NCBI GenBank assembly: GCA_025451535.1
Contig: JANWKE010000082.1
Span: 14,884-78,883 of the forward strand
Length of the DNA: 64,000 nt
Direction: 5' to 3'
DNA from: Verrucomicrobiia bacterium
GTDB lineage: Bacteria; Verrucomicrobiota; Verrucomicrobiia; Limisphaerales; UBA11358
Positions within the stretch are counted from its first letter, which is position 1. Every line of letters starts with the position of its first letter. A model generated the notes under the pieces. The model ran no database searches. It saw only the letters and a list, made by a program, of their open reading frames with translations, and was not told where the DNA came from. The translations under genes and the position numbers were made by a program. This document shows positions 1 through 43,500 of this stretch, in pieces.

Positions 1-321
1 ATCACCATCGTGACGCTCATGTTCGCGCTGGCCGGCGTAATGCGTAATGCAGCGGCAGCGAACGCGGGTGATCTTGACGGTCTTTTGCTCAAAATCCCGG
101 CGCTTTCGAGCATATACGAAGACTGGTTCCGCGCTGACACCTACTGGCGCGACGATACGCGGACGATCTATGTGCAGCGGATTCCTCAAGTCATCCGGGA
201 ACTTGCCGATGAAATGACGGCGGCCAAGGGAGCAAAGTTGGTGCAGCAATATCGGTATGCCCCCATATTCGGGGAACTTTACAAACCGATGCCGTTGCAA
301 CAGGAACAGCGAACAACTTGA
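1..321 (+). CDS. 3' end of an ORF truncated by the window edge; product unknown
   Basis: Frame 1 is open from base 1 to TGA at 319-321 (same frame as track ORF 10..321). It is co-oriented with and directly upstream of the ParA-like gene. No motif recognised. Confidence 0.4.
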   Translation: MTIVTLMFALAGVMRNAAAANAGDLDGLLLKIPALSSIYEDWFRADTYWRDDTRTIYVQRIPQVIRELADEMTAAKGAKLVQQYRYAPIFGELYKPMPLQQEQRTT

Positions 322-449
322 AATTGGTTATGAGTGGCCGAAAAGCTTCTTACGGTGACCGACTGGAAATTGCTACCGAATTCGATGCTGACAGCAAGCA
401 ATTCCCCGTCGTCAAGCTCGAACATCCGTAACCCAAACGAACTAAGATC

Positions 450-1502
450 ATGCACAAGACAATTGCATTATTCAATCACAAGGGCGGGGTTAGCAAAACT
501 ACAACTACGTTTAACCTCGGCTGGATGTTGGCTGAGAAAGGCCACCGCGTGGTGATGATAGATACTGATCCACAATGTAATCTCACTGGCTTGGTGTTGG
601 ACTATGACACTTCGCAGGAATTTGATGCTTTCTATTCTCAGCACCCGAACGCGAATCTCAGGACAGCGTTAGCCCCTGCGTTTGAATCACAACCGAAGCC
701 CATTGAAACAGTGGAGTGTGTTGAAGTCAGAGACCGGCCGGGGTTATTCCTTGTTCCTGGTCACGTGAACTTGAGTGAATATGAGGTCACGTTAGGAATC
801 GCGCAAGAACTGTCCGGTTCACTCCAGGCGCTTAAAAATCTTCCAGGAGCGTTTCATTTCTTTGTTGAAAAAGTTGCGACTGCAAACACTGCCGACTACG
901 TACTTGTCGACATGAGCCCGAGCCTTGGTGCGATGAATCAGAACTTCTTGATGACAAGCGACTGCTTTTTGGTGCCAACGGCCCCCGATTACTTCAGCGT
1001 GATGGCAATAGATTCGCTTGCATCTATTCTCCCAAAATGGATCGAGTGGGCGAAGAAGGCCGCAGAAGCTGAAACGCTCAAGTCGGCAAGTTACCCTTTT
1101 CCCAAGCCTGGTTTGAAATTCCTTGGCACAGTCATTCAACGATATCGCCCGAGAAAAGGGAAAGCCGCGGCAGGATTTCAGACTTGGATTGACCAAATCA
1201 ATGCGAGAGTCAGAGATCGTTTTGTGCCTGCATTAACAAGATACGGCGGCACATTCTTGCCGGCGACCTATAAAGCGGCTGGCATTGATCCCCAAGCTGG
1301 CTATTGTCTTGCCGAGATTGCTGACTTCAATTCTCTCATTACGGCGTCACAAAACCACCAGACTCCAGTCTTCGCACTTACAGAAACCATGCTTGGCCAT
1401 GTTGGCACGGTGTTGACTCAAGATATTGAGAATCGCGACAGATTTAGAAAGACTTTCGACGAATTGGCCGACCGAGTAGTCGCACTGTCTAAACATGCGT
1501 AG
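450..1502 (+). CDS. ParA/Soj-family P-loop ATPase with a C-terminal extension (350 aa)
   Basis: Deviant Walker A FNHKGGVSKTTTTFNLG, DTDPQCNLT, and VLVDMSPSLG...FLVPTAPDYFS. ATG at 450. The stop TAG at 1500-1502 overlaps the next start. Many A/T-ending and rare codons (TTA, AGA, ATA), unlike the flanking chromosome. Confidence 0.85.
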   Translation: MHKTIALFNHKGGVSKTTTTFNLGWMLAEKGHRVVMIDTDPQCNLTGLVLDYDTSQEFDAFYSQHPNANLRTALAPAFESQPKPIETVECVEVRDRPGLFLVPGHVNLSEYEVTLGIAQELSGSLQALKNLPGAFHFFVEKVATANTADYVLVDMSPSLGAMNQNFLMTSDCFLVPTAPDYFSVMAIDSLASILPKWIEWAKKAAEAETLKSASYPFPKPGLKFLGTVIQRYRPRKGKAAAGFQTWIDQINARVRDRFVPALTRYGGTFLPATYKAAGIDPQAGYCLAEIADFNSLITASQNHQTPVFALTETMLGHVGTVLTQDIENRDRFRKTFDELADRVVALSKHA

Positions 1503-2097
1503 CGCTCTGCAACAGTTTCAAGAAAACCTGTTAAGGGCACGCGAACTGGGCAACTTGGCTGTAGCCGTAACGCAGATAGCCACTTCTGCGATAGATGTCA
1601 GCGACATGTGGCGGGCACAGATCGTCCTGGGGGTGAGCGCGCTCGACCATTTGATTCACGAAATGGCGCGGCTTGGCATGATCGAGTGCGCCGAAGGAAC
1701 AAGGCCCAAGACCGACGCTTTCTCTAAATTTCAACTGCCAATCCACGCGGTTGAACGCGGTTTTAGTGGCCAAGCACATGAACAGTGGCTGGGTGAGGCC
1801 GTGCGCGAAAAGCATTCGTGGTTAAGTTTTCAGCATCCTGACAAGCTCGCTGACGCGATTCGGCTCATTTCCCCAGTGAAGCTCTGGGAAGAAGTTAGCA
1901 AGGAATTAGCATTGCCAGCGAAAGACGTAAAGGTTCGCCTCCAACTGATTGTTGAACGAAGGAATAAGATAGCACACGAGGCTGACATGGATCCAACCAA
2001 TCCGGGGTTTCGTTGGCCCATAAACGGCGCTCTAGCTCAGGACACTCTCGACTTTCTTGACAAAATTGCGCAAGCGGTCTTTAAAGTAGCTTCCTGA
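1495..2097 (+). CDS. HEPN-superfamily-like protein (RNxxxH motif), 200 aa, predicted all-helical
   Basis: ERRNKIAHE contains R156-N-K-I-A-H161 (Rx4H with the typical polar N after R) near the C-terminus (nt 1960-1977). The start shares an 8-nt overlap, ATGCGTAG, with the ParA-like gene. The family assignment is an inference, not a search result. Confidence 0.55.
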   Translation: MRSALQQFQENLLRARELGNLAVAVTQIATSAIDVSDMWRAQIVLGVSALDHLIHEMARLGMIECAEGTRPKTDAFSKFQLPIHAVERGFSGQAHEQWLGEAVREKHSWLSFQHPDKLADAIRLISPVKLWEEVSKELALPAKDVKVRLQLIVERRNKIAHEADMDPTNPGFRWPINGALAQDTLDFLDKIAQAVFKVAS

Positions 2098-2119
2098 ACA
2101 AACCAAATAAGCGGTCCGT

Positions 2120-5100
2120 ATGCCTATCGTTCACGATCAGCTTTCGGAACAGTTCTACCGCTGGGAACAGCGCGGACGCGGCTGGCGGGTATATGGCGAG
2201 TCAGTGTATCCTGAACCACCATTCGCTCCATTTGATGGCCATTATCAGCCGGAAGTGCGGGCCATTGACGACGGACGCAGGCCGACGCTTTTAAGCTCGC
2301 TGTTTCGCAAATTGGTCGGCAGCCGACCAGAGGGCACGCCAGCGGCACCTGAACCTGAAGAAGAACCGCAACCGACGCCGCTTGTTCGCGAATCGTCGGT
2401 TGAATTTCAGGCTTCCCTGCCGGAGAAACTCGACGTTGCACAAGAAGCGTTCGAGCAGTTCCTTTTGAATCTATCCTTATGCCGCGAACCTATCTCCTTT
2501 GAATTGCTCGGTATCCACAAGAAGGTGACGGCTCAATTTGCCGCCGCTTCAAGCGATGCCCCGCTGTTGCGCCGCCAGTTGCAGGCGTTCTTTCCCGAAG
2601 CGGTGTTCGTTCCGCATGGTGGCGCGTTGGAAAAGGCATGGGAAAAATCAGAGGGCGACGAGGTGCTGGCGGTGGAATTCGGCCTTGGCCGTGAATTCAT
2701 GCTGCCGCTTCAAAGCGGCAAGATTGATCCGTTCATCGGCATCGTCAGTGCTTTGTCTGAATTGCAGTGTGGCGAGCTTGGCCTGTTTCAAGTCCTCTGG
2801 CAGCCGGTGCAGAACCGCTGGGCCGAAAGCATCATCGCCTCCGTAACGCACGAAGACGGCAAGCCGTTTTTCGCCAACCAGCCCGAATTGACCAGCGCAG
2901 CAGAGGACAAAATCGCAAGTCCCCTGTTTGCCTCCGTGGTGCGTATCCTCGTTCGTGCCGGTGACTTTGAACGGCTATTGCAACTGGGCCGTGACATGGC
3001 CGGTTCATTGCGCGTGTTTACCCATCCGAACGGTAACGAACTCATCCCGCTTCAAAACGACGACTACCCTTTTGAAGAACACATCGGAGACGTGTTACGG
3101 AGACAATCGCGACGGACAGGTATGTTGCTCAACGCCGACGAGCTCATCGGCTTTGTTCATTTACCTGGCAGCGCCGTACGTTCGCCGGTCTTTACGCGGC
3201 AGACTGGCAAGACCAAATCAGCACCGGCGATTGTGCGACAGAGCCAAGGTCTGTTGCTGGGCACCAACGAGCACGCTGGAGAGACCGTTGAAGTGCGGTT
3301 GTCCGCCGAACAGCGCGTGCGTCATTGCCACATCATAGGAGCAAGTGGCACCGGCAAGAGCACGCTGCTTTTCAACCTAATAAAGCAGGACATTGATAAC
3401 GGTGAGGGCGTGGCCGTGCTCGATCCGCACGGCGATTTAATTGACCGGATTTTGGGTGTCATTCCGCCGGAGCGGATTGGCGACGTGGTTTTGGTTGACC
3501 CGGCCGACGAGCAGTATTCGGTTGGGTTCAACATCCTGTCGGCCCACAGCGAGCTTGAGAAGAATTTGCTGGCCTCTGACCTGGTAGCCGTGTTCCAGCG
3601 GTTGAGCACATCGTGGGGGGATCAAATGAACAGCGTTTTGCAGAACGCCATCCTTGCGTTTCTGGAAAGCGACCGACGCGGCACGATTGCCGATCTGCAA
3701 CGCTTCTTGATTGAACCGGCCTTTCGAAATGAATTCCTGAAATCCGTCCGCGATTCCCAGGTGGTGTATTACTGGCAGAAGAGCTTTTCGCATCTCTCCG
3801 GCGGCAAATCTATCGGCTCGATTTTGACCCGGCTGGATGGGTTCCTTTCCAAGAAGCCCATCCGTTACATGGTCTCGCAGCCGGAGAACCGGCTGGATTT
3901 CGCGCATATCATGGACAGCGGCAAAATCTTTCTGGCCAAGCTGCCGGAGGGACTATTGGGCCGGGAAAATTCGCATCTTTTGGGCACGGTGCTGGTGTCG
4001 AAGTTCCAGCAGATTGCCATGAGCCGGCAGGCGCAGCAGGTGGCCGCCCGCAGGGACTATTGGATTTATGCCGATGAGTTCGCCAATTTCATCACGCCGA
4101 GCATGGCGGAGATATTGTCCGGCGCGCGAAAGTATCGCATTGGGCTCACGCTGGCGCACCACGAATTGCAGCAATTGCAGCGCAGCCCGGAAGTAGCGAG
4201 CGCTGTCTTGACGCATCCTTGCACACGGATCGTGTTTCGGGTCGGCGATGACGACGCAAAAAAGCTGGCCGAGGGTTTTTCCTTCTTTGAAGCTAAGGAT
4301 CTGCGGAATCTGGAAACCGGGCAGGCGCTGTGCCGGGTTGAACGCAGTGATTTTGATTTCAACCTGACTGTCCCGCTTCCCGCCGAGCCGGACGCAGGTG
4401 CGACGGCGGCGAGGCGGCAGGAAGTGATTACGTGTTCGGTAAAGAAATACGGCACGGCTCGAGCGGACATTGAGGCGATGCTGGCAAAGTCAAGGACACC
4501 ACCGGAGGGACCGCTGCCTTCCCCACCGACAGAACCAGTCAAGCCGAAGCCGCCAACGCCCCTGGCCCCCGTGGCACCGGTTGTTTCAGAACCGCCGCAG
4601 GCTGCGGAAGCGCCGAAAGTTGTCGAAGTTCCGAAAGCTACGGGTTCGGAAAAGAATATCGCCGAGCCACCGCGCGATTTAGGCCGGGGAGGGGCGCAGC
4701 ACACAACCATTCAGCAGCGAATCCAGACCGAAGCTCGCGTCCTTGGATTCATGTCCGAAGTGGAACGGAAATTGACGGACAAGTCTATGCAAGCCGCTGA
4801 CTTGATCTTGCGCAAAGGCGACCTCGCCATAGCCGTGGAAATCGGCGTTACCACCACTACCGACCATGAATTCGGCAACGTGAAGAAGTGCTTGGCGGCG
4901 GGATATACCCGTGTCGCCGTCATATCCCCAGGTAGAGAGCGTCTAAAGGCGATTGCGGAGGCGGTTCAGGCCGGGCTTGGTTCGGAAGCGACAGCCAAGG
5001 TCAGCTATCACACACCGGATGATTTCATTGCCGAGCTTCGGAAACTGGCGCCGAAAATCAAGAACCAGGCTCTGCCGCAGACTCCCGGTGAGCGCATGAC

Positions 5101-5212
5101 GCTCGGATACAAAGTCCGCACGCATGGCCCGGCGCTTTCCCTGGACGAGCAGAAGGCCAAAGAGGAAATCGCGGTCAAGATGATGGCCGAGGCCATGAAA
5201 CGGAAATCATGA
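2120..5212 (+). CDS. Large HerA/FtsK/TraD(T4CP)-like P-loop NTPase (1030 aa) with an unknown N-terminal domain, a Pro-rich linker and a C-terminal PD-(D/E)xK-like domain
   Basis: Walker A HIIGASGTGKSTLLFN (nt about 3338-3364), VLDPHGDL, Walker B-like WIYADEFANF, and KYRIGLTLAHHELQQL. No N-terminal TM segments. Linker PPEGPLPSPPTEPVKPKPPTPLAPVAPVVSEPPQAAEAP. C-terminal GGAQHTTIQQRIQTEARVLGFMSEVE...AADLIL...AIAVEIGVT...NVKKCLAAGY. Confidence 0.7.
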   Translation: MPIVHDQLSEQFYRWEQRGRGWRVYGESVYPEPPFAPFDGHYQPEVRAIDDGRRPTLLSSLFRKLVGSRPEGTPAAPEPEEEPQPTPLVRESSVEFQASLPEKLDVAQEAFEQFLLNLSLCREPISFELLGIHKKVTAQFAAASSDAPLLRRQLQAFFPEAVFVPHGGALEKAWEKSEGDEVLAVEFGLGREFMLPLQSGKIDPFIGIVSALSELQCGELGLFQVLWQPVQNRWAESIIASVTHEDGKPFFANQPELTSAAEDKIASPLFASVVRILVRAGDFERLLQLGRDMAGSLRVFTHPNGNELIPLQNDDYPFEEHIGDVLRRQSRRTGMLLNADELIGFVHLPGSAVRSPVFTRQTGKTKSAPAIVRQSQGLLLGTNEHAGETVEVRLSAEQRVRHCHIIGASGTGKSTLLFNLIKQDIDNGEGVAVLDPHGDLIDRILGVIPPERIGDVVLVDPADEQYSVGFNILSAHSELEKNLLASDLVAVFQRLSTSWGDQMNSVLQNAILAFLESDRRGTIADLQRFLIEPAFRNEFLKSVRDSQVVYYWQKSFSHLSGGKSIGSILTRLDGFLSKKPIRYMVSQPENRLDFAHIMDSGKIFLAKLPEGLLGRENSHLLGTVLVSKFQQIAMSRQAQQVAARRDYWIYADEFANFITPSMAEILSGARKYRIGLTLAHHELQQLQRSPEVASAVLTHPCTRIVFRVGDDDAKKLAEGFSFFEAKDLRNLETGQALCRVERSDFDFNLTVPLPAEPDAGATAARRQEVITCSVKKYGTARADIEAMLAKSRTPPEGPLPSPPTEPVKPKPPTPLAPVAPVVSEPPQAAEAPKVVEVPKATGSEKNIAEPPRDLGRGGAQHTTIQQRIQTEARVLGFMSEVERKLTDKSMQAADLILRKGDLAIAVEIGVTTTTDHEFGNVKKCLAAGYTRVAVISPGRERLKAIAEAVQAGLGSEATAKVSYHTPDDFIAELRKLAPKIKNQALPQTPGERMTLGYKVRTHGPALSLDEQKAKEEIAVKMMAEAMKRKS

Positions 5213-5461
5213 TCATGTCCGGCTTTGGAGGATATACACCGGCCCGGTGACGCGATACGGCGAACAGCTTTCGATGATGCGGATGCGCAGCTTGGTCAGG
5301 CTTTGTTCGGGGGTTTCCTCGGCTAGTTGCACAGAAGGCCGGGCGACTCCGAGCTTCCGGGCGATTTCGGCCTTGGTCATGCCCGACTTGATGCGGAAAT
5401 GCTTGGCCATCGCAGCCAATTCGCTTTCGACAACGATGTCACGTTTCGACATGGTTGGCAT
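5213..5461 (-). CDS. XRE-family helix-turn-helix transcriptional regulator (82 aa)
   Basis: GMTKAEIARKLGVARPSVQLAE is a typical HTH_3 core. It is divergent from the recombinase gene. Its stop abuts the stop of the 1030-aa gene with zero spacer. Confidence 0.75.
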   Translation of the reverse strand: MPTMSKRDIVVESELAAMAKHFRIKSGMTKAEIARKLGVARPSVQLAEETPEQSLTKLRIRIIESCSPYRVTGPVYILQSRT

Positions 5462-5534: not shown

Positions 5535-7025
5535 ATGAAGGAAAATAGTGCCTTGAACAAACCGGTTGGCATCTGGATTCGGGTTTCGACCGAGGACCAG
5601 GCGAAGGGCGAAAGCCCGGAACACCACGAGGAACGCGCCAGGAGCTACGCCAAGAGCAAGGGCTGGCAGGTCAAGGAGGTCTATGACTTGGCCGGGCAGA
5701 CCGGCAAGGCCGTCATGCAGCACCCGGAGGCCAAACGCATGATGAAGGACATCGAACGCGGACACATCACCGGCTTGGTATTCTCCAAATTGGCCCGCCT
5801 GTCCCGCAACCGGCGCGAACTGGAGGACTTCTCAGACTTCTTCAACAAGCATCATGCCGACCTTATTTCACTCTCCGAAGCCATTGACACCAGCACTGCC
5901 GGAGGCCGGATGTTCTTTCATCTCTTGGGTGTATTTGCCCAATGGGAACGCGAGGAGATCACCGAGCGCGTCAATGCCTCCGTATTGACCCGCGCCAAAC
6001 TCGGCAAATCCATCAATGGCACTTCCCCGTACGGCTATGTCTGGAAAGACCGCAAATTGATCGTCCGGCCGGAGGAAGCTGCTGTGCGGCGCAAAGCCTA
6101 CGAACTGTTTCTGCAGTTCCGGCGAAAGGGGCAGGTCGCCCAGCATTTAAACGCCGCCGGATACCGCACCCGCAATGGGAACATCTGGCGGGACACCTCG
6201 ATTCTGCGCCTCTTGAACGAATCCAGCGCCAAAGGCGTGTATGTGTTCAATACCATGCGCTTGACCGGGACATGGCGCACCGAAACGAAGCCCGAAAGCG
6301 AATGGGGCCGGGCCGAATGCCCGCCCATCGTTTCCGAAGAACTATGGAATCAGGTGAACCAGATCATTGAGGAACAGTTGAAGTCATGGAAAAAGCCCGG
6401 CAAACCGCCCGTTCACCTGTTCAGCGGCTTAGCCCATTGTTCGTGCGGCCACAGGATGTATGTTGCCGCCAACAGCCCGAAATACTTCTGCCGCAAATGC
6501 CGCAACAAGATACCCATCACCGACCTTGAGAACATCGCCAGAAATGAGCTAAAAGTCTTTTTCGGTGAGCCCAAGCGGATAGCTGGCCATCTGCGGCAAG
6601 CTGACCGCAATCTGGCCGAGAAATCCGCCTTGCTCGACGCCCACAGGCGGGAGATGCAGAAGGTCAAAGAGGATATGCACCATACGCATCAGTTGTATTT
6701 GAAACATCAGATTTCCGGCGATGGTTTCCGCGACCTCTTCACGCCCGCCGAGGAACGGATGAAGCAGTTGCAGGCCGAACTGCCCAGGCTGGAAGCCGAT
6801 GTGGATTTCCTTAAAGTCAACAAGCTGTCCACCGATGACGTGCTTCACGAAGCCGCCACGCTCCATGACCGCTGGCCGAAATTGCCGTTTGACGACAAGC
6901 GAAAAGTCGTCGAAGCCCTCATCGAAAAGATCGTCATCGGCAACGGTGAAATAGACATAACCTTCTCGCACCTGCCATCTTCTGAAGAACTATGCAAAAA
7001 CCAGCAGAGGTTAGGGCCGGGGTGA
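5535..7025 (+). CDS. Large serine recombinase (resolvase/invertase N-domain + recombinase domain + zinc ribbon + coiled coil)
   Basis: VGIWIRVSTEDQ (catalytic Ser), GLVFSKLARLSRN, GGRMFFHLLGVFAQWEREEITERV, YGY...G, CSCGHRMY...FCRKCRNK, and a long C-terminal coiled coil. Confidence 0.9.
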   Translation: MKENSALNKPVGIWIRVSTEDQAKGESPEHHEERARSYAKSKGWQVKEVYDLAGQTGKAVMQHPEAKRMMKDIERGHITGLVFSKLARLSRNRRELEDFSDFFNKHHADLISLSEAIDTSTAGGRMFFHLLGVFAQWEREEITERVNASVLTRAKLGKSINGTSPYGYVWKDRKLIVRPEEAAVRRKAYELFLQFRRKGQVAQHLNAAGYRTRNGNIWRDTSILRLLNESSAKGVYVFNTMRLTGTWRTETKPESEWGRAECPPIVSEELWNQVNQIIEEQLKSWKKPGKPPVHLFSGLAHCSCGHRMYVAANSPKYFCRKCRNKIPITDLENIARNELKVFFGEPKRIAGHLRQADRNLAEKSALLDAHRREMQKVKEDMHHTHQLYLKHQISGDGFRDLFTPAEERMKQLQAELPRLEADVDFLKVNKLSTDDVLHEAATLHDRWPKLPFDDKRKVVEALIEKIVIGNGEIDITFSHLPSSEELCKNQQRLGPG

Positions 7026-7072
7026 GGACGGTCGTTCAAACCATTCTTGTTTTCGGATTGACGACTGACTAC

Positions 7073-7972
7073 TTAAAATCTCGTCAGCTTTTCCAGTTCC
7101 TTCACGCGCCGATCGATTTGGGCAAGTTTGGTTTTGGTGGTGCGCGTCAGGCCGAAACCTTCGCAGCAGAACGACGCGGTGACGCTGCCGTAAATCATCG
7201 CGCGCCGGAGATTATCCTCAATCGAACCCTTCGCCGCCGCGAGCCGGCCCATCATGCCGCCCACGAACGAATCGCCTGCGCCGGTCGGGTCCACGACCTT
7301 GGACAGCGGGTACGCCGGACAGATGAAATAGCCGCGTGGACCGGACAAAATCGAGCCGTGCGAGCCTTTTTTGATGATGACGTATTTCGGCCCCAGCTTG
7401 TGGATTTTCTTCAGCGCGGTGAAGAGGTTGTCCTCTTTGGTCAACTGGTGCGCCTCGCTGTCGTTGAGCACGAAGCCGTCAAGGCGCTTGAGCAGCTTCA
7501 GCAAGTCCGGCAGCGCGATGTTCAGCCACAAATCCATCGTGTCGGCCACGACGAATTTCGGGCGGCGCATCTGGTCGAGCACGTGACTCTGGAGCGCGGG
7601 CGCGATGTTCGCCAGCAGGACGAATTGGGAGTCCCGGTGCGGTTCCGGCAGTGTGGGCGTGAAGGTCTCGAACACGCCGAGCTCGGTCAGCAGTGTGCGC
7701 CGGTTGTTCATGTTCACCTCGTATTCACCGGACCAATGGAAAGTTTTGCCGGGAAGAATCTGCAGACCTTCGAGGTCAATTTTGTGCCGGCGATAAAGCT
7801 CGAGGTATTTTTTGGGGAAATCCTCGCCGACCACGCCGACCAGTTTTACCGGGCTGAAAAAGCTCGCGGCGACGGCGGCGTGGCTGGCCGAGCCGCCCAG
7901 CAGCCGCGGGTTCTCGGCCCTGGGTGTTTTGATGGAATCCAGCGCGGTGGAACCGACGATGAGAACGCTCAT
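7073..7972 (-). CDS. PfkB-family carbohydrate/nucleoside kinase
   Basis: MSVLIVGSTALD..., LLGGSASHAA, and DPTGAGDSFVGGMMG (ribokinase-family signature). The start was chosen at the internal ATG (7972) because the longer ORF runs into a repeat element. Confidence 0.85.
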   Translation of the reverse strand: MSVLIVGSTALDSIKTPRAENPRLLGGSASHAAVAASFFSPVKLVGVVGEDFPKKYLELYRRHKIDLEGLQILPGKTFHWSGEYEVNMNNRRTLLTELGVFETFTPTLPEPHRDSQFVLLANIAPALQSHVLDQMRRPKFVVADTMDLWLNIALPDLLKLLKRLDGFVLNDSEAHQLTKEDNLFTALKKIHKLGPKYVIIKKGSHGSILSGPRGYFICPAYPLSKVVDPTGAGDSFVGGMMGRLAAAKGSIEDNLRRAMIYGSVTASFCCEGFGLTRTTKTKLAQIDRRVKELEKLTRF

Positions 7973-7986
7973 GTTATTTTGTGAAT

Positions 7987-8055
7987 TGTAGCGGCGCTCA
8001 GTGAGCGCCGGTAATTTATTTTTACGAACTGCGACGATCATAGACCGCCGCTACA
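7987..8055. repeat. 69-bp miniature element with a perfect 10-bp inverted terminus (GTAGCGSC-terminus family)
   Basis: TGTAGCGGCG (7987-7996) / CGCCGCTACA (8046-8055). Inner hairpin GGCGCTC-agt-GAGCGCC. 8038-8055 TCATAGACCGCCGCTACA matches 47781-47798 at 17/18 nt. Confidence 0.7.
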
Positions 8056-8059
8056 GTTT

Positions 8060-8455
8060 TCAGCCGCCCCCTTTGCCTTTCTGAATTAATTCAATTTCGT
8101 AGCCTTCCGGCGCGTCAACGAACGCGAAGGTTGTGCCGCTCGAACTCGTCGTTGGACCATCGGAATATTTCAGGCCGTGTTTGGCGAGGTGTTTGGCAAA
8201 TTCATCGAGGCTGTCCACTTCAAACGCCAGATGCGTCAAATCCGGTTGTACCTGTACCGAGGCGCTGCCCGGAAAATGGCAGATTTCAATTTCCTCATCG
8301 CTCTTGGGCGCCTTGAGAAAAACCAGCTCCGAGCCGCGTGGCGATTTGTGTCGCTTGATTTCATTCAAACCGAGGATTTCGCGGTAAAATTTCACCGTCC
8401 GTTCCAAATTATTCACGCGATAGCGCGTGTGCAGCAGTTTTGTGACCTTGCTCAT
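8060..8455 (-). CDS. VOC-family protein / glyoxalase I-like (lactoylglutathione lyase-like)
   Basis: LLHTRYRVNNLERTVKFYREILGL...THLAFEVDSLDEF...GYEIELIQ. Confidence 0.8.
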   Translation of the reverse strand: MSKVTKLLHTRYRVNNLERTVKFYREILGLNEIKRHKSPRGSELVFLKAPKSDEEIEICHFPGSASVQVQPDLTHLAFEVDSLDEFAKHLAKHGLKYSDGPTTSSSGTTFAFVDAPEGYEIELIQKGKGGG

Positions 8456-8524
8456 GCGCAAAATCTAATAAGTTCAATGGCCAAAGTCCAATATCCAAAG
8501 TCGTGGATAATATCTCAATTTAAA

Positions 8525-8636
8525 GGAGCGCGGTTTGTCCCAAACCGCAGCGCGCCCGGATCCAAAGCCACCTGTCCGCGCTTACCGATGCTTCTTTGCG
8601 CAAGTCCTGCTGCGAGTTGAGGACAACTCGCGCTCC
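8525..8636. repeat. About 112-bp palindromic MITE/REP-like element in the divergent spacer
   Basis: Termini GGAGCGCGGTTTG (8525-8537) / CAACTCGCGCTCC (8624-8636), 11/13 complementary. Inner hairpins GCGGTTT-gtccc-AAACCGC and GCGAGTTG-agga-CAACTCGC. Central palindrome TTGCGCAA. Confidence 0.4.
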
Positions 8637-8678
8637 GGGTTGTAAATTAGGACCCCACCAAGCAGCTCCGCTTTGTTT

Positions 8679-8720
8679 GACTTTGAGCTTTAGACTTTAG
8701 GCTTCAGACCTTAGAATTTG
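8679..8720. repeat. Six tandem degenerate heptamers (GRCYTTR) immediately upstream of the nusB start
   Basis: gactttg agcttta gacttta ggcttca gacctta gaatttg, ending 4 nt before ATG 8725. Confidence 0.6.
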
Positions 8721-8724
8721 ATTT

Positions 8725-9225
8725 ATGGGCAAACGCCGTGAGGCGCGCGAACGCGCCGTCCAGTTTCTGTTTCAGCACGACCTGAATCCGCCGGAGGATT
8801 TGGACCGGGCGCTGGAGGAATTCTGGCAGACGCAGCGCGCCGCGGCCATTGCCGAGGAAAAAGGTCCGGCGACCTGGGGCCAGCCCCACGAATTGGCGCC
8901 GCCAACCGCCGAGGAAGCCGAAACGCGCCTGTTCGCCGACCCGCTCATCCGCGGCGTTCTCGAACACCGTGATGCGATCGACGAGCGCATCAAGACTCAC
9001 GCGAAGAACTGGGAATTTCACCGCATCGCCACGGTCGATCGCAACATTATGCGGCTGGCCATCTATGAAATGCTTTTTCGTGAGGACATTCCACCCATCG
9101 TCAGCATCAACGAGGCGGTGGATGTCGCGAAGAAATTTTCCACCCAGGACAGCGGCAAGTTCGTCAATGGCATTCTGGACAAGATCAAGGGTGAAGTCAT
9201 GCGGCCGGCGAGAGTCGTAAAATGA
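8725..9225 (+). CDS. nusB: Transcription antitermination factor NusB
   Basis: RREARERAVQFLFQ...NIMRLAIYEML...PPIVSINEAVDVAKKF...FVNGILDKI. Confidence 0.9.
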   Translation: MGKRREARERAVQFLFQHDLNPPEDLDRALEEFWQTQRAAAIAEEKGPATWGQPHELAPPTAEEAETRLFADPLIRGVLEHRDAIDERIKTHAKNWEFHRIATVDRNIMRLAIYEMLFREDIPPIVSINEAVDVAKKFSTQDSGKFVNGILDKIKGEVMRPARVVK

Positions 9226-10070
9226 AATTCGCGGACTTACATCTTCACACGTATTTCTCCGACGGGACGTTCTCACCGGAGGAGCTCGTTGGTCACGGTC
9301 ACCGGCTCGGCTTCGCGGCGCTGGCGCTTACGGACCATGATTCGGTGGAGGGTTGTCCGCGCATGGTTGCGGCGTGCGCGGCAGCAGGCATTGATTTTAT
9401 TCCCGGCACTGAACTTACCGCCGAACACAACAATACCGAAATTCATCTGCTCGGTTATTCCTTGGATACGGAGAACCAAATACTCCTGTCGGAAATCGCC
9501 AAATTTCAGGCTGTCCGGCAGAATCGCATCCACGAAATGGTCGCGCGGCTCAACGGCTTAAAGGTGCCGCTGCAGGTGGAATCCGTTTTCGCACTGGCCA
9601 ATTGCAAATCGCCGGGCCGGCCGCATGTAGCGCGCGCACTGGTGAAGGCCGGGCTGGTCGGGAGTCTGGATGAAGCTTTCGAACGATTTCTGAAGAAGAA
9701 CCGGCCGGCGTGGGTGCCCAAGGCCAAAATGTCCGCGCTCGAAGCCATCGAACTCATCCATCAGGCCGGGGGACTCGCCGTCATGGCACATCCAGGGCTT
9801 AACCGCACCGACGACGTGATTCCGGTGCTGGTCGAAGCCGGCCTGGATGGCATCGAATGTTTTCATACGAAGCACTCGACCGTTACCTCCGAGCGTTATC
9901 TGGAAATCGCCGACAAATATCATCTGCTCATCACCGGCGGCTCCGATTGTCACGGTTTCAGCAAGGGCAAACCGCTCATCGGCACCGTCAAGCTGCCCTA
10001 CGAACACGTGGAGAAACTGAAAGCAAAAGCTGAAGAACGAAAATTCTCAACCACGGATGAACACAGATAA
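9222..10070 (+). CDS. PHP-domain metal-dependent phosphoesterase (TrpH/YciV-like)
   Basis: ADLHLHTYFSDG, LALTDHDSVEG, IPGTELT, AHPG, GIECFH and GGSDCHG. ATGA overlap with the nusB stop. Confidence 0.8.
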   Translation: MKFADLHLHTYFSDGTFSPEELVGHGHRLGFAALALTDHDSVEGCPRMVAACAAAGIDFIPGTELTAEHNNTEIHLLGYSLDTENQILLSEIAKFQAVRQNRIHEMVARLNGLKVPLQVESVFALANCKSPGRPHVARALVKAGLVGSLDEAFERFLKKNRPAWVPKAKMSALEAIELIHQAGGLAVMAHPGLNRTDDVIPVLVEAGLDGIECFHTKHSTVTSERYLEIADKYHLLITGGSDCHGFSKGKPLIGTVKLPYEHVEKLKAKAEERKFSTTDEHR

Positions 10071-43200: not shown

Positions 43201-43268
43201 AACCAGACGGCCAGAGCCAGCGGGATTCCAAGAACTACCAGGACAATGAGAGCAATGGTCGGTTCCAT
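40200..43268 (-). CDS. Very large polytopic membrane protein, DUF2339-like (unknown function)
   Basis: N-terminal TM, coiled coil (HIDELSRRIGTLELEWFRLRQ) and Pro-rich linker, then more than 25 hydrophobic segments. The start is uncertain. Confidence 0.6.
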   Translation of the reverse strand: MEPTIALIVLVVLGIPLALAVWLIVRAINAKNHIDELSRRIGTLELEWFRLRQSREREMARPSEATPGPQPKPAAPVPFTPPKPVVVPQPIVQPEIPPAVAPPPIPPMPEPVFSGPLPPFSSTSEPLRQPVPKINWEQFMGVKGFAWLGGFALFLGVAFFVKYSFDNNLVSPELRVAIGFLVGLGLLVGGVVMSRKNFTALSQTLCATGVVILYAVTFACRSIYHFEFFGPLPTFLLMALITATAFLLAVRLDALVVAILGMLGGFLTPILLSTGQDNPLGLFGYIAILDVGLLVVALVRRWHFLAALAALGTAFMQIGWAGKFFVSGQYFAGDRIFIALAVLLGFNALWLVANGLAKRRGQINQWFSGSSLGLVAVALAFTAWFLDFSPLAQRPWLMFGFVFLIDLVALAVAWVDETVCPARSVSGFAVFGLLALWTAKSLSNELLNAGLVFYFIFAVLHSAWPAWIQRRRGATQQNWANHLFPILALALVLVPVFKLAEVSFIVWPFILLVDLLAIGLAVLTATLLPVLAVLLLTLAATGALIFKIPADLTGLPTSFFLLGAFVVFFVVAGIWLVRKFNPGALKAGIKFGDDLTAPGDLAAILPAFSIVLPFLLLIMATLRLPLINPSPVFGLALLLVVLLFGVTKLFSFDWMPAIGLACVAALECAWHFSRFDPANPSQPLNLVLAWYLIFFALFAVFPFLFLRPFENKVVPWAAAAMAGPLQFFLIHRFVAAVYPNQFMGLLPAAFVLPGLLSLVIVLKTVPAETKARLTQLAWFGGVALFFITLIFPIQFDRQWITIGWALEGAALLWLFHRVPHPGLRLVGIGLLAIAFVRLALNPAVLEYHPRAATPIFNWYLYAYGIVTAALFAGAKLLAPPRNQISAINTPPTLAGLGTVLAFLLLNIEIADYFSAPGSTLTFQFSGDFARDMTYSIAWALFALVLLIIGILKKVPAARYAAMGLLCITLLKLFFHDLARLGQLYRIGAFVGVAVVAMLASFAYQKFFAAGAKKKESKDEPTR

Positions 43269-43500
43269 AAATTTTGCCTTTCGACTGCGGAACGACTTGG
43301 GTGCCGGCAATGTGCGCTTTGCTCCCAATCACTGGCAAGTCACAAATGCGCGCATCCAAGCCGGTTGGCGTTCATTTGTGGCAGGATAACGCTGTGGGCA
43401 ACCGGAGAGTGAATTGAAAAAAATGACGGAATAATAAAAAAATCGATGCGGCATTTTACATTTCATTCGCCGGGCAACGACGGTAAAATGCAGACGTTGT

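What the first reader, a model, noticed from the sequence alone, without database searches (positions are those of the whole stretch)
450..5212. ParA-like ATPase + HEPN-like (RNxxxH) protein + giant HerA/FtsK/T4CP-like NTPase-nuclease fusion: candidate undescribed defence or addiction module
Seen in the sequence:
- Three co-oriented genes are packed as one unit.
- The first two overlap by 8 nt (ATGCGTAG at 1495-1502), which implies translational coupling.
- Only 22 nt separate the second and third genes.
- They sit as cargo next to an XRE regulator and a large serine recombinase.
- The first two genes use visibly A/T-richer, rarer codons than the chromosome.

Gene 1 is a ParA/Soj ATPase with a KGGVSKTT Walker A. 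Gene 2 is a 200-aa helical protein with R156-N-K-I-A-H161, the signature of HEPN RNases. Gene 3 carries a HerA/FtsK/TraD-type P-loop (GASGTGKST, VLDPHGDL, YADEFANF, LAHHELQQL). It has no membrane anchor, and a Pro-rich tether joins it to a C-terminal module that reads like a PD-(D/E)xK nuclease.

Established knowledge is that HEPN RNases are common abortive-infection and toxin effectors. Oligomeric HerA-type ATPases scaffold nuclease or NADase effectors in the SIR2-HerA and DUF4297-HerA systems.

I know of no named system with this three-part composition. Gabija, Septu, PARIS, Hachiman, Lamassu, Zorya, Druantia, Wadjet and the Abi families do not match.

The inference is an NTPase-gated RNase and/or DNase immunity or element-maintenance module. 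The alternative is that ParA is simple partitioning and gene 3 is a single-protein FtsK-like DNA translocase, as in actinomycete-type integrative elements.
Basis: partly seen in the sequence, partly recalled or inferred. Interest (0 to 1): 0.85.

Follow-up and report, generated by a model that had tools for sequence, protein, structure and literature searches.

The report
ParA–HEPN cassette inside a mobile element
The three genes are not one system: a self-contained two-gene ParA-ATPase/HEPN-RNase toxin-like cassette, found in many unrelated genomes, has been inserted just upstream of a large DNA-pumping ATPase–nuclease gene that is a core gene of a widespread integrative mobile element.

Summary
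Every sequence observation checks out: the ORFs, the 8-nt ATGCGTAG overlap, the 22-nt gap, all quoted motifs, no TM segment in gene 3, and lower GC3 in genes 1-2.

The three-gene unit does not hold.
- **Gene 3 without genes 1-2.** None of 38 loci carrying a gene 3 homologue (40-82% identity) has a ParA or HEPN gene beside it. The conserved order is membrane protein g0 (window 10-321 is its 3' end), gene 3, small/XRE genes, then the large serine recombinase. Close relatives also carry a second TrwB-like ATPase, a Replic_Relax (MOBC) relaxase, a DnaG-like primase and ArdC. This is an integrative mobilizable element.
- **Genes 1-2 without gene 3.** In 63 of 63 loci with enough upstream sequence, a ParA homologue lies directly upstream of the HEPN homologue and overlaps it. 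None of those loci has gene 3.
- **Where the pair occurs.** It sits inside type I R-M operons, next to BREX and Cas1/AbiU2 genes, on Burkholderia conjugative plasmids and in a Pseudomonas Pf prophage.

So window 322-2119 is a cargo insertion between g0 and gene 3. A ParA/Soj–HEPN toxin–antitoxin pair was predicted computationally in 2013. I found no experimental study, and PADLOC v2 has no model for it. Gene 3's C-terminus does model as a PD-(D/E)xK fold.

The parts
10..321 (+). 3' end (C-terminal 103 aa) of g0. In related elements g0 is a ~235-240 aa polytopic membrane protein encoded 4-10 nt upstream of the gene 3 homologue. It belongs to the element backbone, not to the cassette.
   Evidence: tblastn matches to g0 directly upstream of gene 3 homologues in nearly all loci with upstream sequence. 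The L001 g0 has strong TM segments, KD19 maximum 2.85. g0-gene 3 junction sequences are.
322..449 (+). Left junction and leader of the inserted cassette. It contains a 15-nt inverted repeat (360-374 / 397-411). No consensus sigma-70 promoter was found.
   Evidence: Similarity to related elements stops at about 292-321 and resumes at about 2119-2130. Repeats are; the promoter scan is.
450..1502 (+). Gene 1: a ParA/MinD-class (deviant Walker A KGGVSKTT) ATPase of 350 aa with a ~110-aa C-terminal extension. It is the predicted regulator/antitoxin partner of the HEPN protein.
   Evidence: AAA_31 4.6e-30 and CbiA 5.5e-15. Walker A, DTDPQ and Walker B regions are near-invariant in 54 homologues. A homologue lies directly upstream of the HEPN gene in 63 of 63 loci. 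In 3 of 3 ParA look-ups a HEPN-family ORF follows (in one it is truncated to 139 aa and unannotated). The closest solved relative is 3pg5, an uncharacterised protein, at 1.2e-21.
1495..2097 (+). Gene 2: a 200-aa stand-alone HEPN protein of the RiboL-PSP / MAE_28990-18760-like group. Its Rx4H motif is R156-N-K-I-A-H161. It is the predicted RNase toxin/effector.
   Evidence: The window protein scores PF18735 3.2e-4, which is sub-threshold. All 30 aligned homologues hit PF18735 (best 9.5e-11) and 5 of 30 hit PF18737. R155, R156 and H161 are invariant. The family has 832 clusters (50% identity) at E<=1e-10, and nearly all of the 150 best hits listed are ~200 aa. It also matches phrog_13503 at 5.9e-33.
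1495..1502 (+). 8-nt overlap ATGCGTAG between the gene 1 stop codon and the gene 2 start codon, implying translational coupling.
   Evidence: The overlap is conserved: by my ORF reconstruction, 24 of 53 homologous pairs overlap by 8 nt, 18 by 17 nt and 7 by 4 nt. The Pf prophage AY324828.1 has the same arrangement (ATGCATAG).
2120..3229 (+). Gene 3 N-terminal region (residues 1-370; DUF8128 in precomputed Pfam). Its fold is unresolved.
   Evidence: PF26449/DUF8128 is listed for homologues. The AF2 model is poor, pLDDT 50, so the fold search is not reliable.
3230..4489 (+). Gene 3 ATPase core (residues 371-790) of the TrwB/VirD4/TraD-DUF87 type. Walker A is GASGTGKST (407) and Walker B is YADEF (650).
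   Evidence: TrwB_AAD_bind 4e-10 and DUF87 4.4e-7, both above their Pfam cut-offs. VirD4-like CD1115 5e-10. Profile against PDB: TrwB 4e-6, DotL 6e-6, HerA 0.01. PADLOC mad8 3.4e-16. This is the most conserved part of the protein, 77-90% identity in close relatives.
4490..4663 (+). Variable Pro/Ala/Glu-rich linker (residues about 791-848).
   Evidence: Conservation drops to near zero across 120 homologues.
4664..5212 (+). Gene 3 C-terminal domain (residues about 849-1030) with a restriction-endonuclease-like (PD-(D/E)xK) fold.
   Evidence: AF2 model with pLDDT 81 and an alpha-beta-beta-beta-alpha-beta core. The best-ranked Foldseek PDB hits are PD-(D/E)xK nucleases: R2 RLE, EcoT38I, Bax1, R.BspD6I, Can2, PspGI, PaqCI and Hjc. 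E-values run from 6e-4 to 1e-2 for the first 18 and up to about 0.1-0.3 for Hjc; query-normalised TM is about 0.3-0.45. H861, E882, D894, E907, E917, K923 and C924 are invariant down to 42% identity. No Pfam or PDB sequence hit.
5213..5461 (-). XRE-type HTH regulator of the element backbone.
   Evidence: HTH_3/HTH_31 at E about 3e-3, HipB-like 6.8e-5. Conserved between gene 3 and the recombinase in related elements.
5535..7025 (+). Large serine recombinase, the integrase of the element.
   Evidence: Resolvase 3.8e-29, Recombinase 4.4e-18. It is 94-95% identical to recombinases in L004, L005 and L013.
7027..7036 (.). Approximate right end of the element, the point where nucleotide similarity to related elements stops.
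   Evidence: blastn of 6800-9300 against all loci: matches end 2-11 nt after the recombinase stop codon. The downstream pfkB-like and nusB genes have no match in the related loci.

Best explanation
The region is a composite of two independent things.

**(A) The ParA-HEPN cassette (window 322-2119).** This is an autonomous, horizontally mobile two-gene cassette. It encodes a ParA/MinD-class ATPase translationally coupled to a stand-alone HEPN protein with an intact Rx4H site.
- Most likely mechanism (inferred): it is a toxin-antitoxin / abortive-infection-type module.
- The HEPN dimer is a latent RNase.
- The co-translated ParA-type ATPase holds it inactive, or gates it in a nucleotide-dependent way.
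- A trigger then releases RNA cleavage and growth arrest. Candidate triggers are phage infection, loss of the element, or a disturbed nucleoid or ATP state.
- On this element the cassette is accessory cargo serving defence and/or element retention.

**(B) Gene 3 is not part of that module.** With the membrane protein g0 encoded just upstream, it is a core gene of a large family of serine-recombinase integrative elements.
- Close relatives of this family also encode a second TrwB-like ATPase, a Replic_Relax (MOBC) relaxase, a DnaG-like primase and ArdC.
- I read g0 plus gene 3 as a membrane-tethered coupling-protein-like DNA-translocating ATPase. Its fused PD-(D/E)xK domain would process the element's DNA during transfer or establishment.

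**Shown versus inferred.** Shown: the domain identities, the strict ParA-HEPN pairing, the absence of any gene 3 link, the element backbone and the insertion. Inferred: toxicity, antitoxin role, trigger, and the role of gene 3 in transfer.
For: **The two parts are separable.**
- 0 of 38 gene 3 loci carry ParA or HEPN. Instead g0 directly abuts gene 3 with a 4-10 nt gap.
- 0 of 89 HEPN loci carry gene 3.
- Nucleotide similarity to sister elements breaks at about 292-321 and resumes at about 2119-2130.
- GC3 is 0.51 and 0.55 for the cassette genes against 0.63 (g0) and 0.66 (gene 3) beside them, and 0.65-0.77 for the chromosomal genes.
- A different insertion, a 373-aa ORF, occupies the same g0/gene 3 junction in L009.

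**The dyad is a unit.**
- 63 of 63 loci have the ParA homologue upstream and overlapping.
- The overlap is conserved.
- The converse holds: in 3 of 3 ParA look-ups a HEPN-family ORF follows directly, although in one it is a truncated, unannotated 139-aa ORF.
- Walker motifs in ParA and R155/R156/H161 in HEPN are invariant.

**Contexts point to conflict or maintenance.**
- Five loci have hsd genes on both sides of the dyad.
- 9 of 47 distinct loci with at least 2 kb of flank have type I R-M genes within 5 kb.
- Other neighbours include BrxC, a CAP12-type TIR protein, Cas1 and AbiU2.
- The dyad is also on Burkholderia glumae conjugative plasmids and in a Pf prophage, and in 4 IMG/VR contigs.

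**Prior prediction.** A ParA/Soj-HEPN TA dyad with the ATPase as antitoxin was predicted in PMC3710099.

**Gene 3.**
- TrwB_AAD_bind and DUF87 score above their Pfam cut-offs. A profile search against PDB hits TrwB and DotL best.
- The C-terminal domain has a PD-(D/E)xK fold with invariant acidic and Lys residues.
- The element backbone carries Replic_Relax, primase, ArdC and a serine recombinase.
- Replic_Relax equals MOBC relaxase, and the combination of serine integrase, VirD4-type coupling protein and MobC relaxase is a described IME class (PMC5357655).
Against: - No experiment supports toxicity, antitoxicity or phage defence.
- The window's own HEPN protein is below the Pfam gathering score (21.1 against 28.4 bits).
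- PADLOC-DB v2 has no model for the dyad, so its 'defence' label rests on context only. Some dyads sit between housekeeping genes.
- The left part of this particular element lies outside the window. Its relaxase, primase and ArdC are inferred from relatives whose gene 3 is about 70% identical.
- No T4SS genes were seen, and a second, more canonical TrwB-like ATPase sits next to the relaxase in relatives. Gene 3's role in transfer is therefore not established; it could serve exclusion, defence or replication instead.
- The N-terminal DUF8128 fold is unresolved.
- The catalytic Lys of the nuclease motif is not in the canonical (D/E)xK position. Residue 909 is Gly, and the invariant K923 lies on the next helix.
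Confidence: 0.7

Rival explanations
1. One reading: ParA, HEPN and the gene 3 ATPase-nuclease form one three-component defence or addiction system, in which an oligomeric HerA-like NTPase scaffolds or gates the RNase and DNase effectors.
For: The three genes are co-oriented and tightly packed, with no terminator between genes 2 and 3. All catalytic motifs are intact. Gene 3's ATPase core resembles the MADS defence component mad8 (3.4e-16).
Against: The three-gene arrangement was not seen in any other locus examined: 0 of 38 gene 3 loci have ParA/HEPN and 0 of 89 HEPN loci have gene 3. Sister elements have g0 abutting gene 3 exactly where the cassette sits. Composition differs between the cassette and gene 3. 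PADLOC HerA hits cover only the ~50-residue P-loop region.
Confidence: 0.03
2. The ParA-HEPN pair is purely a post-segregational-killing / addiction module that stabilises mobile elements and genomic islands. It has no role in phage defence.
For: It occurs as cargo on an integrative element (this window), on conjugative plasmids and in a Pf prophage. The original prediction classed it as a toxin-antitoxin system. Some copies sit among housekeeping genes with no defence genes nearby.
Against: The dyad is repeatedly embedded between hsdS/hsdM and hsdR, and lies next to BREX, TIR, Cas1 and AbiU2 genes. That is the classic signature of abortive-infection genes. TA and Abi functions are not mutually exclusive.
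Confidence: 0.3
3. Gene 1 is a genuine partition ATPase for the excised element, and gene 2 is its non-catalytic, HEPN-fold adaptor or centromere-binding partner. On this reading the pair is a segregation system.
For: It has the deviant Walker A and full ParA motifs. Its best PHROG match is 'ParA-like partition protein' at 6.7e-48. It is present on plasmids and prophages.
Against: The partner keeps an invariant catalytic Rx4H motif. The pair lies inside chromosomal type I R-M operons and between housekeeping genes, where partition is meaningless. No ParB or centromere-like repeat array lies nearby. NCBIfam partition-protein models score far below their cut-offs, for example ParA_partition 64.6 against 180 bits.
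Confidence: 0.07
4. Gene 3, with g0, is not a transfer protein. It is an element-encoded exclusion/defence or replication-initiation enzyme: an ATP-driven nuclease acting on incoming or competing DNA. The smaller TrwB-like ATPase next to the relaxase would then be the real coupling protein.
For: The C-terminal nuclease has strictly conserved catalytic-type residues. A second TrwB/DUF87 ATPase is adjacent to Replic_Relax in relatives. There is similarity to mad8. Relatives in phage-derived families have unknown function (phrog_5156 1.4e-60).
Against: Synteny with the membrane protein g0 and the serine recombinase holds across elements whose gene 3 is only 40-50% identical, which points to a core life-cycle function. 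The best solved-structure matches are coupling proteins.
Confidence: 0.2

Closest known systems
ParA/Soj-like ATPase + HEPN (MAE_18760 family) gene dyad, predicted as a novel toxin-antitoxin system by Anantharaman et al. 2013 (PMC3710099)
   Same: The gene order is the same, with the ATPase upstream of a stand-alone HEPN protein carrying Rx4-6H. [quoted passage not shown] 5 of 30 family members hit the Pfam MAE_28990/MAE_18760-like model.
   Different: By Pfam this family matches RiboL-PSP-HEPN (PF18735) better, in 30 of 30 members. That paper's table lists RiboL-PSP-HEPN as 'operon with ParB'. The dyad remains a prediction: I found no experimental paper on it.
MNT-HEPN (MntA/HepT) toxin-antitoxin systems
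   Same: A HEPN RNase toxin is encoded immediately downstream of, and coupled to, a nucleotide-using enzyme that neutralises it. Both are common cargo of mobile elements and defence islands.
   Different: Here the partner is a ParA/MinD-class dimerising ATPase, not a minimal nucleotidyltransferase. The neutralisation chemistry (AMPylation in MntA/HepT) cannot be assumed.
AbiD/AbiF-type and other R-M-embedded HEPN abortive-infection proteins (AbiU2, AbiJ, PrrC/RloC logic)
   Same: The HEPN effector is located inside type I R-M operons. The RiboL-PSP family is described as distantly related to AbiD/AbiF.
   Different: Those are single proteins or ABC-ATPase fusions. Here a separate ParA-type ATPase is obligatory. 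No PADLOC Abi model matches.
Type IV coupling proteins (TrwB/VirD4/TraD/DotL) and serine-integrase IMEs with a MobC (Replic_Relax) relaxase plus VirD4-type coupling protein (streptococcal IME_Class_8, PMC5357655)
   Same: Gene 3's ATPase core matches TrwB_AAD_bind, and TrwB and DotL are its best PDB hits. Relatives of the element combine a Replic_Relax relaxase, TrwB-like ATPase(s) and a large serine recombinase.
   Different: Gene 3 has no TM anchor; a separate membrane protein, g0, is encoded upstream. It carries a ~370-aa DUF8128 N-domain and a C-terminal PD-(D/E)xK domain. The elements carry two TrwB-like ATPases, and they occur in MAGs labelled Verrucomicrobiota, Acidobacteriota, Gemmatimonadota, Bacteroidota and other phyla rather than in Firmicutes. 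No full-length homologue is present in 72,556 PLSDB plasmids.
HerA-effector defence systems (SIR2-HerA, DUF4297-HerA) and MADS (mad8)
   Same: They share a FtsK/HerA/TraD-superfamily P-loop ATPase associated with a nuclease-type effector. The mad8 profile matches residues 400-738 at 3.4e-16.
   Different: The HerA profiles match only about 50 residues around the P-loop. No HAS-barrel was detected, and no other mad gene is present. Gene 3's genomic context is a mobile-element backbone, not a defence island.
Actinomycete integrative conjugative element (AICE) TraB-type FtsK-like translocase
   Same: Both would be a single large soluble or membrane-associated translocase on an integrative element.
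   Different: The FtsK_SpoIIIE model scores only E=0.062, below its threshold. The relatives carry a relaxase and ArdC, which are hallmarks of ssDNA conjugative mobilisation.

Membership tests
HEPN superfamily (RiboL-PSP-HEPN, PF18735) | Conserved Rx4-6H catalytic motif | tested here: met
   The motif is R156-N-K-I-A-H161. R155, R156 and H161 are invariant in 30 homologues. It is also kept in distant copies: SRRNSIVHE in the Pf prophage and TRRNAIVHE in the Burkholderia plasmid.
HEPN superfamily (RiboL-PSP-HEPN, PF18735) | Significant match to the family profile | tested here: inconclusive
   The window protein scores 21.1 bits, below the 28.4 gathering score (E=3.2e-4). All 30 aligned homologues hit PF18735 at E<=0.1 (best 9.5e-11), and 5 of 30 also hit PF18737. 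Sources annotate several homologues as RiboL-PSP-HEPN.
HEPN superfamily | All-alpha HEPN fold and RNase activity | not tested
Enzymatic activity is not testable here.
ParA/MinD (deviant Walker A) ATPases | KGGxxK[ST] deviant Walker A plus the A' and B motifs, and a profile match | tested here: met
   KGGVSKTT is at residues 11-18. AAA_31 scores 105 bits against a cut-off of 27. The motifs are near-invariant in 54 homologues.
ParABS-type partition system | A cognate ParB/centromere-binding partner and centromere repeats next to parA | tested here: not met
   The downstream partner is always the HEPN gene. No repeat array is present. Partition-protein equivalog models score far below their cut-offs.
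ParA/Soj-HEPN toxin-antitoxin dyad (predicted, PMC3710099) | ATPase gene immediately upstream of a stand-alone HEPN gene, conserved across genomes | tested here: met
   63 of 63 loci show this arrangement. The overlap is conserved. In 3 of 3 ParA look-ups a HEPN-family ORF follows.
ParA/Soj-HEPN toxin-antitoxin dyad (predicted, PMC3710099) | HEPN toxic, ATPase neutralising | not testable with these tools
   Requires expression experiments.
Type IV coupling protein (VirD4/TrwB/TraD) | TrwB-type nucleotide-binding domain | tested here: met
   TrwB_AAD_bind scores 39.6 bits against a cut-off of 20.5. A profile search against PDB gives TrwB 4e-6 and DotL 6e-6.
Type IV coupling protein (VirD4/TrwB/TraD) | N-terminal transmembrane anchor | tested here: not met
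   No 19-residue window reaches KD 1.6 (maximum 1.32). The adjacent g0 protein is polytopic and could supply the anchor in trans.
Type IV coupling protein (VirD4/TrwB/TraD) | Encoded with a relaxase and a T4SS | tested here: inconclusive
   A Replic_Relax (MOBC) relaxase is present in related elements L001, L006, L011, L129 and L130. No T4SS genes lie within 10 kb. The left part of this element is outside the window. NCBIfam T4CP equivalogs score far below their cut-offs.
HerA-effector defence systems (SIR2-HerA, DUF4297-HerA) | A full-length HerA (HAS-barrel plus ATPase) match and a conserved effector partner in defence islands | tested here: not met
   HerA profiles align only residues about 388-439. 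The context is a mobile-element backbone in all 38 loci.
MADS (mad1-mad8 operon) | Presence of the multi-gene mad operon, including the methyltransferase | tested here: not met
   Only mad8 matches, through the ATPase core (3.4e-16). The mad1 hit to the XRE gene is trivial (E=0.023). No other mad genes are present. MADS is an 8-gene operon.
PD-(D/E)xK nuclease superfamily (gene 3 C-terminal domain) | alpha-beta-beta-beta-alpha-beta core fold | tested here: met
   The AF2 model (pLDDT 81) shows H11-26, E30-33, E47-51, E54-60, H66-78, E84-87. The best-ranked Foldseek hits are PD-(D/E)xK nucleases.
PD-(D/E)xK nuclease superfamily (gene 3 C-terminal domain) | Catalytic D...(D/E)xK triad | tested here: inconclusive
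   D894 and E907 are invariant and lie on strands 2 and 3. Position +2 after E907 is Gly. The invariant K923 lies on the following helix and may be a migrated Lys. No Pfam or PDB sequence match.
AICE TraB / FtsK-SpoIIIE translocases | FtsK_SpoIIIE domain match | tested here: not met
   PF01580 scores E=0.062, 13.2 bits against a cut-off of 24.

The most novel reading that the evidence does not exclude
The ParA-HEPN dyad is an uncatalogued abortive-infection defence family. A ParA/MinD-type ATPase, whose ATP-dimer normally rides on nucleoid DNA, would act as the infection sensor that licenses a HEPN RNase. This would be a sensor class not used by any characterised defence system. Separately, g0 plus gene 3 (DUF8128-TrwB-like ATPase-PD-(D/E)xK nuclease) would define an undescribed DNA-processing/transfer machine. 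It would belong to a very widespread family of serine-recombinase mobile elements spanning several phyla.
Probability: 0.35. Interest if true: 0.6.

Novelty: new member of a known kind. Interest (0 to 1): 0.4.

Why it matters
**For annotation.** Tight packing on a mobile element can be a cargo insertion rather than an operon. Here comparison with sister loci splits an apparent three-gene 'system' into a backbone gene and an inserted cassette.

**For biology: the dyad.**
- The ParA-HEPN pair is strictly coupled and widely dispersed.
- It is found in R-M operons, next to BREX and CRISPR-associated genes, on conjugative plasmids, in a Pf prophage and in this integrative element.
- It was predicted in 2013. 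It has no model in PADLOC-DB v2, and I found no experimental work on it.
- It is small (1.65 kb) and easy to clone and test. A positive result would add a defence or addiction family with a ParA-type regulator.

**For biology: gene 3.**
- The gene 3 family has more than 4,000 clusters (90% identity) in the searched database, many about 70% identical across MAGs assigned to different phyla.
- It marks a large, undescribed family of integrative mobilizable elements in soil and freshwater bacteria.
- Its signature protein is a coupling-protein-like ATPase fused to a nuclease, with a DUF8128 domain for which I found no literature.

Tried and rejected
**Searches and predictions that led nowhere**
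- Looking up the window's own gene 3 product to recover the left flank of the element found nothing on record. The left half of this element could not be read.
- The AF2 model of the gene 3 N-terminal DUF8128 region was poor (pLDDT 50). Its Foldseek hits are not trustworthy: BBE-type oxidases at rmsd 8-13 Å and weak VirB4 N-domain matches. I draw no conclusion from them.
- Sequence searches of the gene 3 C-domain against Pfam and PDB gave nothing. Only the fold search was informative.
- The HEPN family profile against PDB gave nothing.
- No target-site duplication or terminal repeats flank the cassette, so the insertion mechanism is unknown.
- The promoter/terminator scan was at background level.
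- Literature searches returned only the 2013 paper or irrelevant hits. The terms were RiboL-PSP, DUF8128, MAE_18760, HEPN+ParA/Soj, HEPN+ParA-like and HEPN+AAA_31.

**Readings considered and rejected**
- MADS membership: only the mad8 core matches.
- HerA-effector systems: only the P-loop region matches.
- AICE TraB: the FtsK model is below threshold.
- Classical partition: no ParB or centromere.

**Caveats on the counts**
- The 80 metagenome loci are the best-scoring of 513 or more hits, not a random sample.
- A few loci are duplicates: 83 of 94 are distinct.
- ORF calling in the loci was a simple longest-ORF heuristic.
- MAG taxonomy labels may include mis-binned contigs.
- The R-M enrichment has no formal background model.

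Full report
**1. Observation**

- The stop codon of gene 1 and the start codon of gene 2 overlap in ATGCGTAG at 1495-1502. Twenty-two nucleotides separate genes 2 and 3.
- All quoted motifs are at the stated residues: KGGVSKTT at 11, RNKIAH at 156-161, and GASGTGKST, VLDPHGDL, YADEFANF and LAHHELQQL at 407, 433, 650 and 678.
- Gene 3 has no hydrophobic segment; its highest 19-residue Kyte-Doolittle mean is 1.32.
- An XRE-type HTH gene (5213-5461, - strand) and a large serine recombinase (5535-7025) follow.
- Genes 1 and 2 have GC3 of 0.51 and 0.55. Gene 3 has 0.66, the recombinase 0.72, and the chromosomal genes further right 0.65-0.77.

**2. Domain identities**

*Gene 1* is a ParA/MinD-class ATPase.
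- AAA_31 scores 4.6e-30 and CbiA 5.5e-15.
- The partition-protein equivalogs of NCBIfam score far below their cut-offs.
- Its closest solved relative is an uncharacterised 361-aa structural-genomics protein, 3pg5, at 1.2e-21.

*Gene 2* is a HEPN-family protein.
- On its own it is just under the Pfam threshold for HEPN_RiboL-PSP (21.1 against 28.4 bits).
- It has 860 homologues in the first search.
- All 30 that I aligned hit PF18735 (best 9.5e-11), and 5 also hit the MAE_28990/MAE_18760-like HEPN model.
- R155, R156 and H161 are invariant.
- An exhaustive profile search finds 832 clusters (50% identity) at E<=1e-10. Nearly all of the 150 best hits listed are stand-alone proteins of about 200 aa.

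*Gene 3* has three regions plus a linker.
- The N-terminal ~370 residues are annotated DUF8128 in precomputed Pfam.
- The ATPase core matches TrwB_AAD_bind (4e-10) and DUF87 (4.4e-7), both above their cut-offs.
- A family profile searched against PDB hits the coupling proteins TrwB (4e-6) and DotL (6e-6) ahead of HerA (0.01).
- A variable Pro-rich linker follows.
- The C-terminal ~180 residues have no sequence-level match.

I modelled that C-terminal domain from 21 homologues.
- The model has pLDDT 81 and shows the alpha-beta-beta-beta-alpha-beta core.
- The best-ranked Foldseek hits in the PDB are PD-(D/E)xK nucleases: the R2 restriction-like endonuclease, EcoT38I, Bax1, R.BspD6I, Can2, PspGI, PaqCI and Hjc.
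- E-values run from 6e-4 to 1e-2 for the first 18 hits and up to about 0.1-0.3 for Hjc; unrelated folds appear only lower in the list.
- H861, E882, D894, E907, E917, K923 and C924 are invariant in homologues down to 42% identity.

The canonical Lys of the (D/E)xK motif is not in place, however.

**3. Gene 3 belongs to a mobile-element backbone, without ParA or HEPN**

Gene 3 has more than 4,000 homologous clusters. Many are about 70% identical over the full length. I collected 35 loci from reference genomes and three places from the assemblies, then searched them with all window proteins.

- None has a ParA or HEPN homologue beside the gene 3 homologue.
- The conserved order is g0, gene 3, a small or XRE gene on the opposite strand, then the serine recombinase. 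Window 10-321 is the 3' end of g0.
- g0 ends 4-10 nt before the gene 3 start in sister elements.
- g0 is detectable upstream of gene 3 even in elements whose gene 3 is only 40-50% identical.
- g0 is a polytopic membrane protein.

In close relatives the upstream backbone runs as follows:
- a 480-aa TrwB/DUF87 ATPase;
- a Replic_Relax protein;
- a DnaG-like primase;
- two small ORFs;
- ArdC;
- a variable cargo stretch, then g0.

Replic_Relax is the MOBC relaxase family. The combination of serine integrase, VirD4-type coupling protein and MobC relaxase is a described class of integrative mobilizable elements (PMC5357655).

Nucleotide similarity between the window and sister elements stops 2-11 nt after the recombinase stop codon, so the element's right end is at about 7027-7036. 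No full-length gene 3 homologue occurs in 72,556 annotated plasmids.

**4. ParA and HEPN form an autonomous pair, without gene 3**

Contexts of HEPN homologues:
- In Opitutaceae TAV1 the pair lies between hsdS and hsdR of a type I R-M operon.
- In a gammaproteobacterial MAG it is again inside a type I R-M locus, with MNT/HEPN pairs nearby.
- A third context has an AAA_15/RloB pair nearby.

I then fetched 80 metagenome loci and 4 viral contigs.
- In 63 of 63 loci with at least 1,100 nt upstream of the HEPN gene, a ParA homologue (47-85% identity) lies directly upstream and overlaps it. None of the 89 loci has a gene 3 homologue.
- By my ORF reconstruction the overlap is 8 nt in 24 pairs, 17 nt in 18 and 4 nt in 7, out of 53.
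- The converse also holds: in three of three ParA homologues looked up, a HEPN-family ORF follows directly. In one of the three it is a truncated 139-aa ORF with no Pfam hit.
- The contexts of those three were housekeeping genes, Cas1 plus AbiU2, and another type I R-M operon.
- Of 47 distinct loci with at least 2 kb of flank, 9 have type I R-M genes within 5 kb. In 5 of them the dyad has hsd genes on both sides.
- Other neighbours include BrxC, a CAP12-type TIR protein and a phage portal.

More distant copies also exist (ParA 42-44% identical, HEPN 33-34%).
- One is on Burkholderia glumae conjugative plasmids, annotated 'AAA family ATPase' and 'HEPN domain-containing protein'.
- Another is at the att-proximal end of a Pseudomonas Pf prophage (AY324828.1). 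There the ParA-like gene is annotated 'similar to Soj' and the HEPN ORF is unannotated but has the same ATGCATAG overlap.

**5. Synthesis**

Window 322-2119 is an insertion of this two-gene cassette into the g0-gene 3 junction of the element.
- Nucleotide similarity to sister elements breaks at about 292-321 and resumes at about 2119-2130.
- Composition differs between the cassette and its neighbours.
- L009 carries a different insert, a 373-aa ORF, at the same junction.
- I found no flanking repeats, so how the cassette was inserted is unknown.
- No terminator-like site lies between genes 2 and 3. Transcription probably reads through into gene 3, which may be why the insertion is tolerated.

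**6. Mechanism**

*Shown:*
- the strict pairing and translational coupling of the two genes;
- intact ATPase motifs in ParA and intact Rx4H motifs in HEPN;
- repeated placement in conflict loci and on mobile elements.

*Inferred:* the HEPN protein is a latent RNase, and the ParA-type ATPase, made in stoichiometric amounts just before it, neutralises or gates it. A trigger then frees the RNase, giving growth arrest, either abortive infection or post-segregational killing.

This is the logic proposed in 2013 for a 'ParA/Soj ATPase + MAE_18760-family HEPN' dyad, with the ATPase as antitoxin (PMC3710099). I found no later work on it, and PADLOC-DB v2 has no model for it.

For gene 3 I favour a membrane-tethered (via g0) coupling-protein-like DNA translocase with an attached nuclease, working in transfer or establishment of the element. 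A defence, exclusion or replication role is a live alternative, for three reasons:
- a second, more canonical TrwB-like ATPase sits next to the relaxase;
- no T4SS genes are seen;
- the N-domain fold is unresolved.

**7. Comparison, novelty and verdict**

The three-gene 'undescribed defence module' is not a unit.
- The ParA-HEPN cassette is a new, well-supported member of a kind that has been predicted but not characterised.
- Gene 3 is the signature protein of a large, apparently undescribed family of integrative mobilizable elements of a known general type.

The most interesting follow-up is experimental testing of the 1.65-kb dyad.

I score interest at 0.4.

Noticed in passing
window 5535-7025; L004, L005, L013: The serine recombinase is 94-95% identical (aa) to those of elements in MAGs labelled Acidobacteriota (Ca. 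Acidiferrales) and Chloroflexota (Ca. Limnocylindrales). Gene 3 in the same loci is only 71-74% identical. This suggests module exchange and very recent cross-phylum spread, or mis-binned contigs.
   Followed up: partly
L009:8777-9898 (between the g0 and gene 3 homologues): A different insert, a 373-aa ORF with no Pfam match, occupies the same g0/gene 3 junction as the ParA-HEPN cassette in the window. The junction may therefore be a cargo hot spot.
   Followed up: partly
L001, L129, L130 (downstream of the recombinase): Several sister elements abut or split a comM-like Mg-chelatase (ChlI/Mg_chelatase) gene, a known integration hot spot. The window's element instead ends next to a pfkB-family kinase gene (7073-8041, - strand).
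   Followed up: no
L136 (AY324828.1, Pseudomonas Pf prophage) 3055-4516: A distant ParA-HEPN dyad sits at the att-proximal end of a filamentous prophage. The HEPN ORF (175 aa, SRRNSIVHE motif, ATGCATAG overlap) is not annotated in the record.
   Followed up: partly
L128, L129, L130, L007 (cargo region between ArdC and g0): Sister elements carry other conflict-type cargo: a SymE toxin, a TCAD9 protein plus an HD protein, an Apyc1-like metallo-beta-lactamase (anti-Pycsar family hit), a trio of tyrosine recombinases, and an IS200-type transposase. A 530-600 aa PEGA-domain protein recurs upstream of g0.
   Followed up: no
window 360-374 / 397-411: A 15-nt inverted repeat (87% complementary, 22-nt spacer) lies in the 128-nt leader upstream of the ParA gene. 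It could be an operator or an RNA structure.
   Followed up: no
window 40200-43328 (- strand): The striking AT skew (0.35-0.40) of the + strand at 41-43 kb is explained by a 1042-aa highly hydrophobic polytopic membrane protein gene on the - strand. This looks ordinary.
   Followed up: yes
gene 3 homologues: Residues 258-788 of gene 3 match phrog_5156, an 824-position family of unknown function from phage/prophage records, at 1.4e-60. Relatives that apparently lack the C-terminal nuclease therefore occur in sequences annotated as viral.
   Followed up: no
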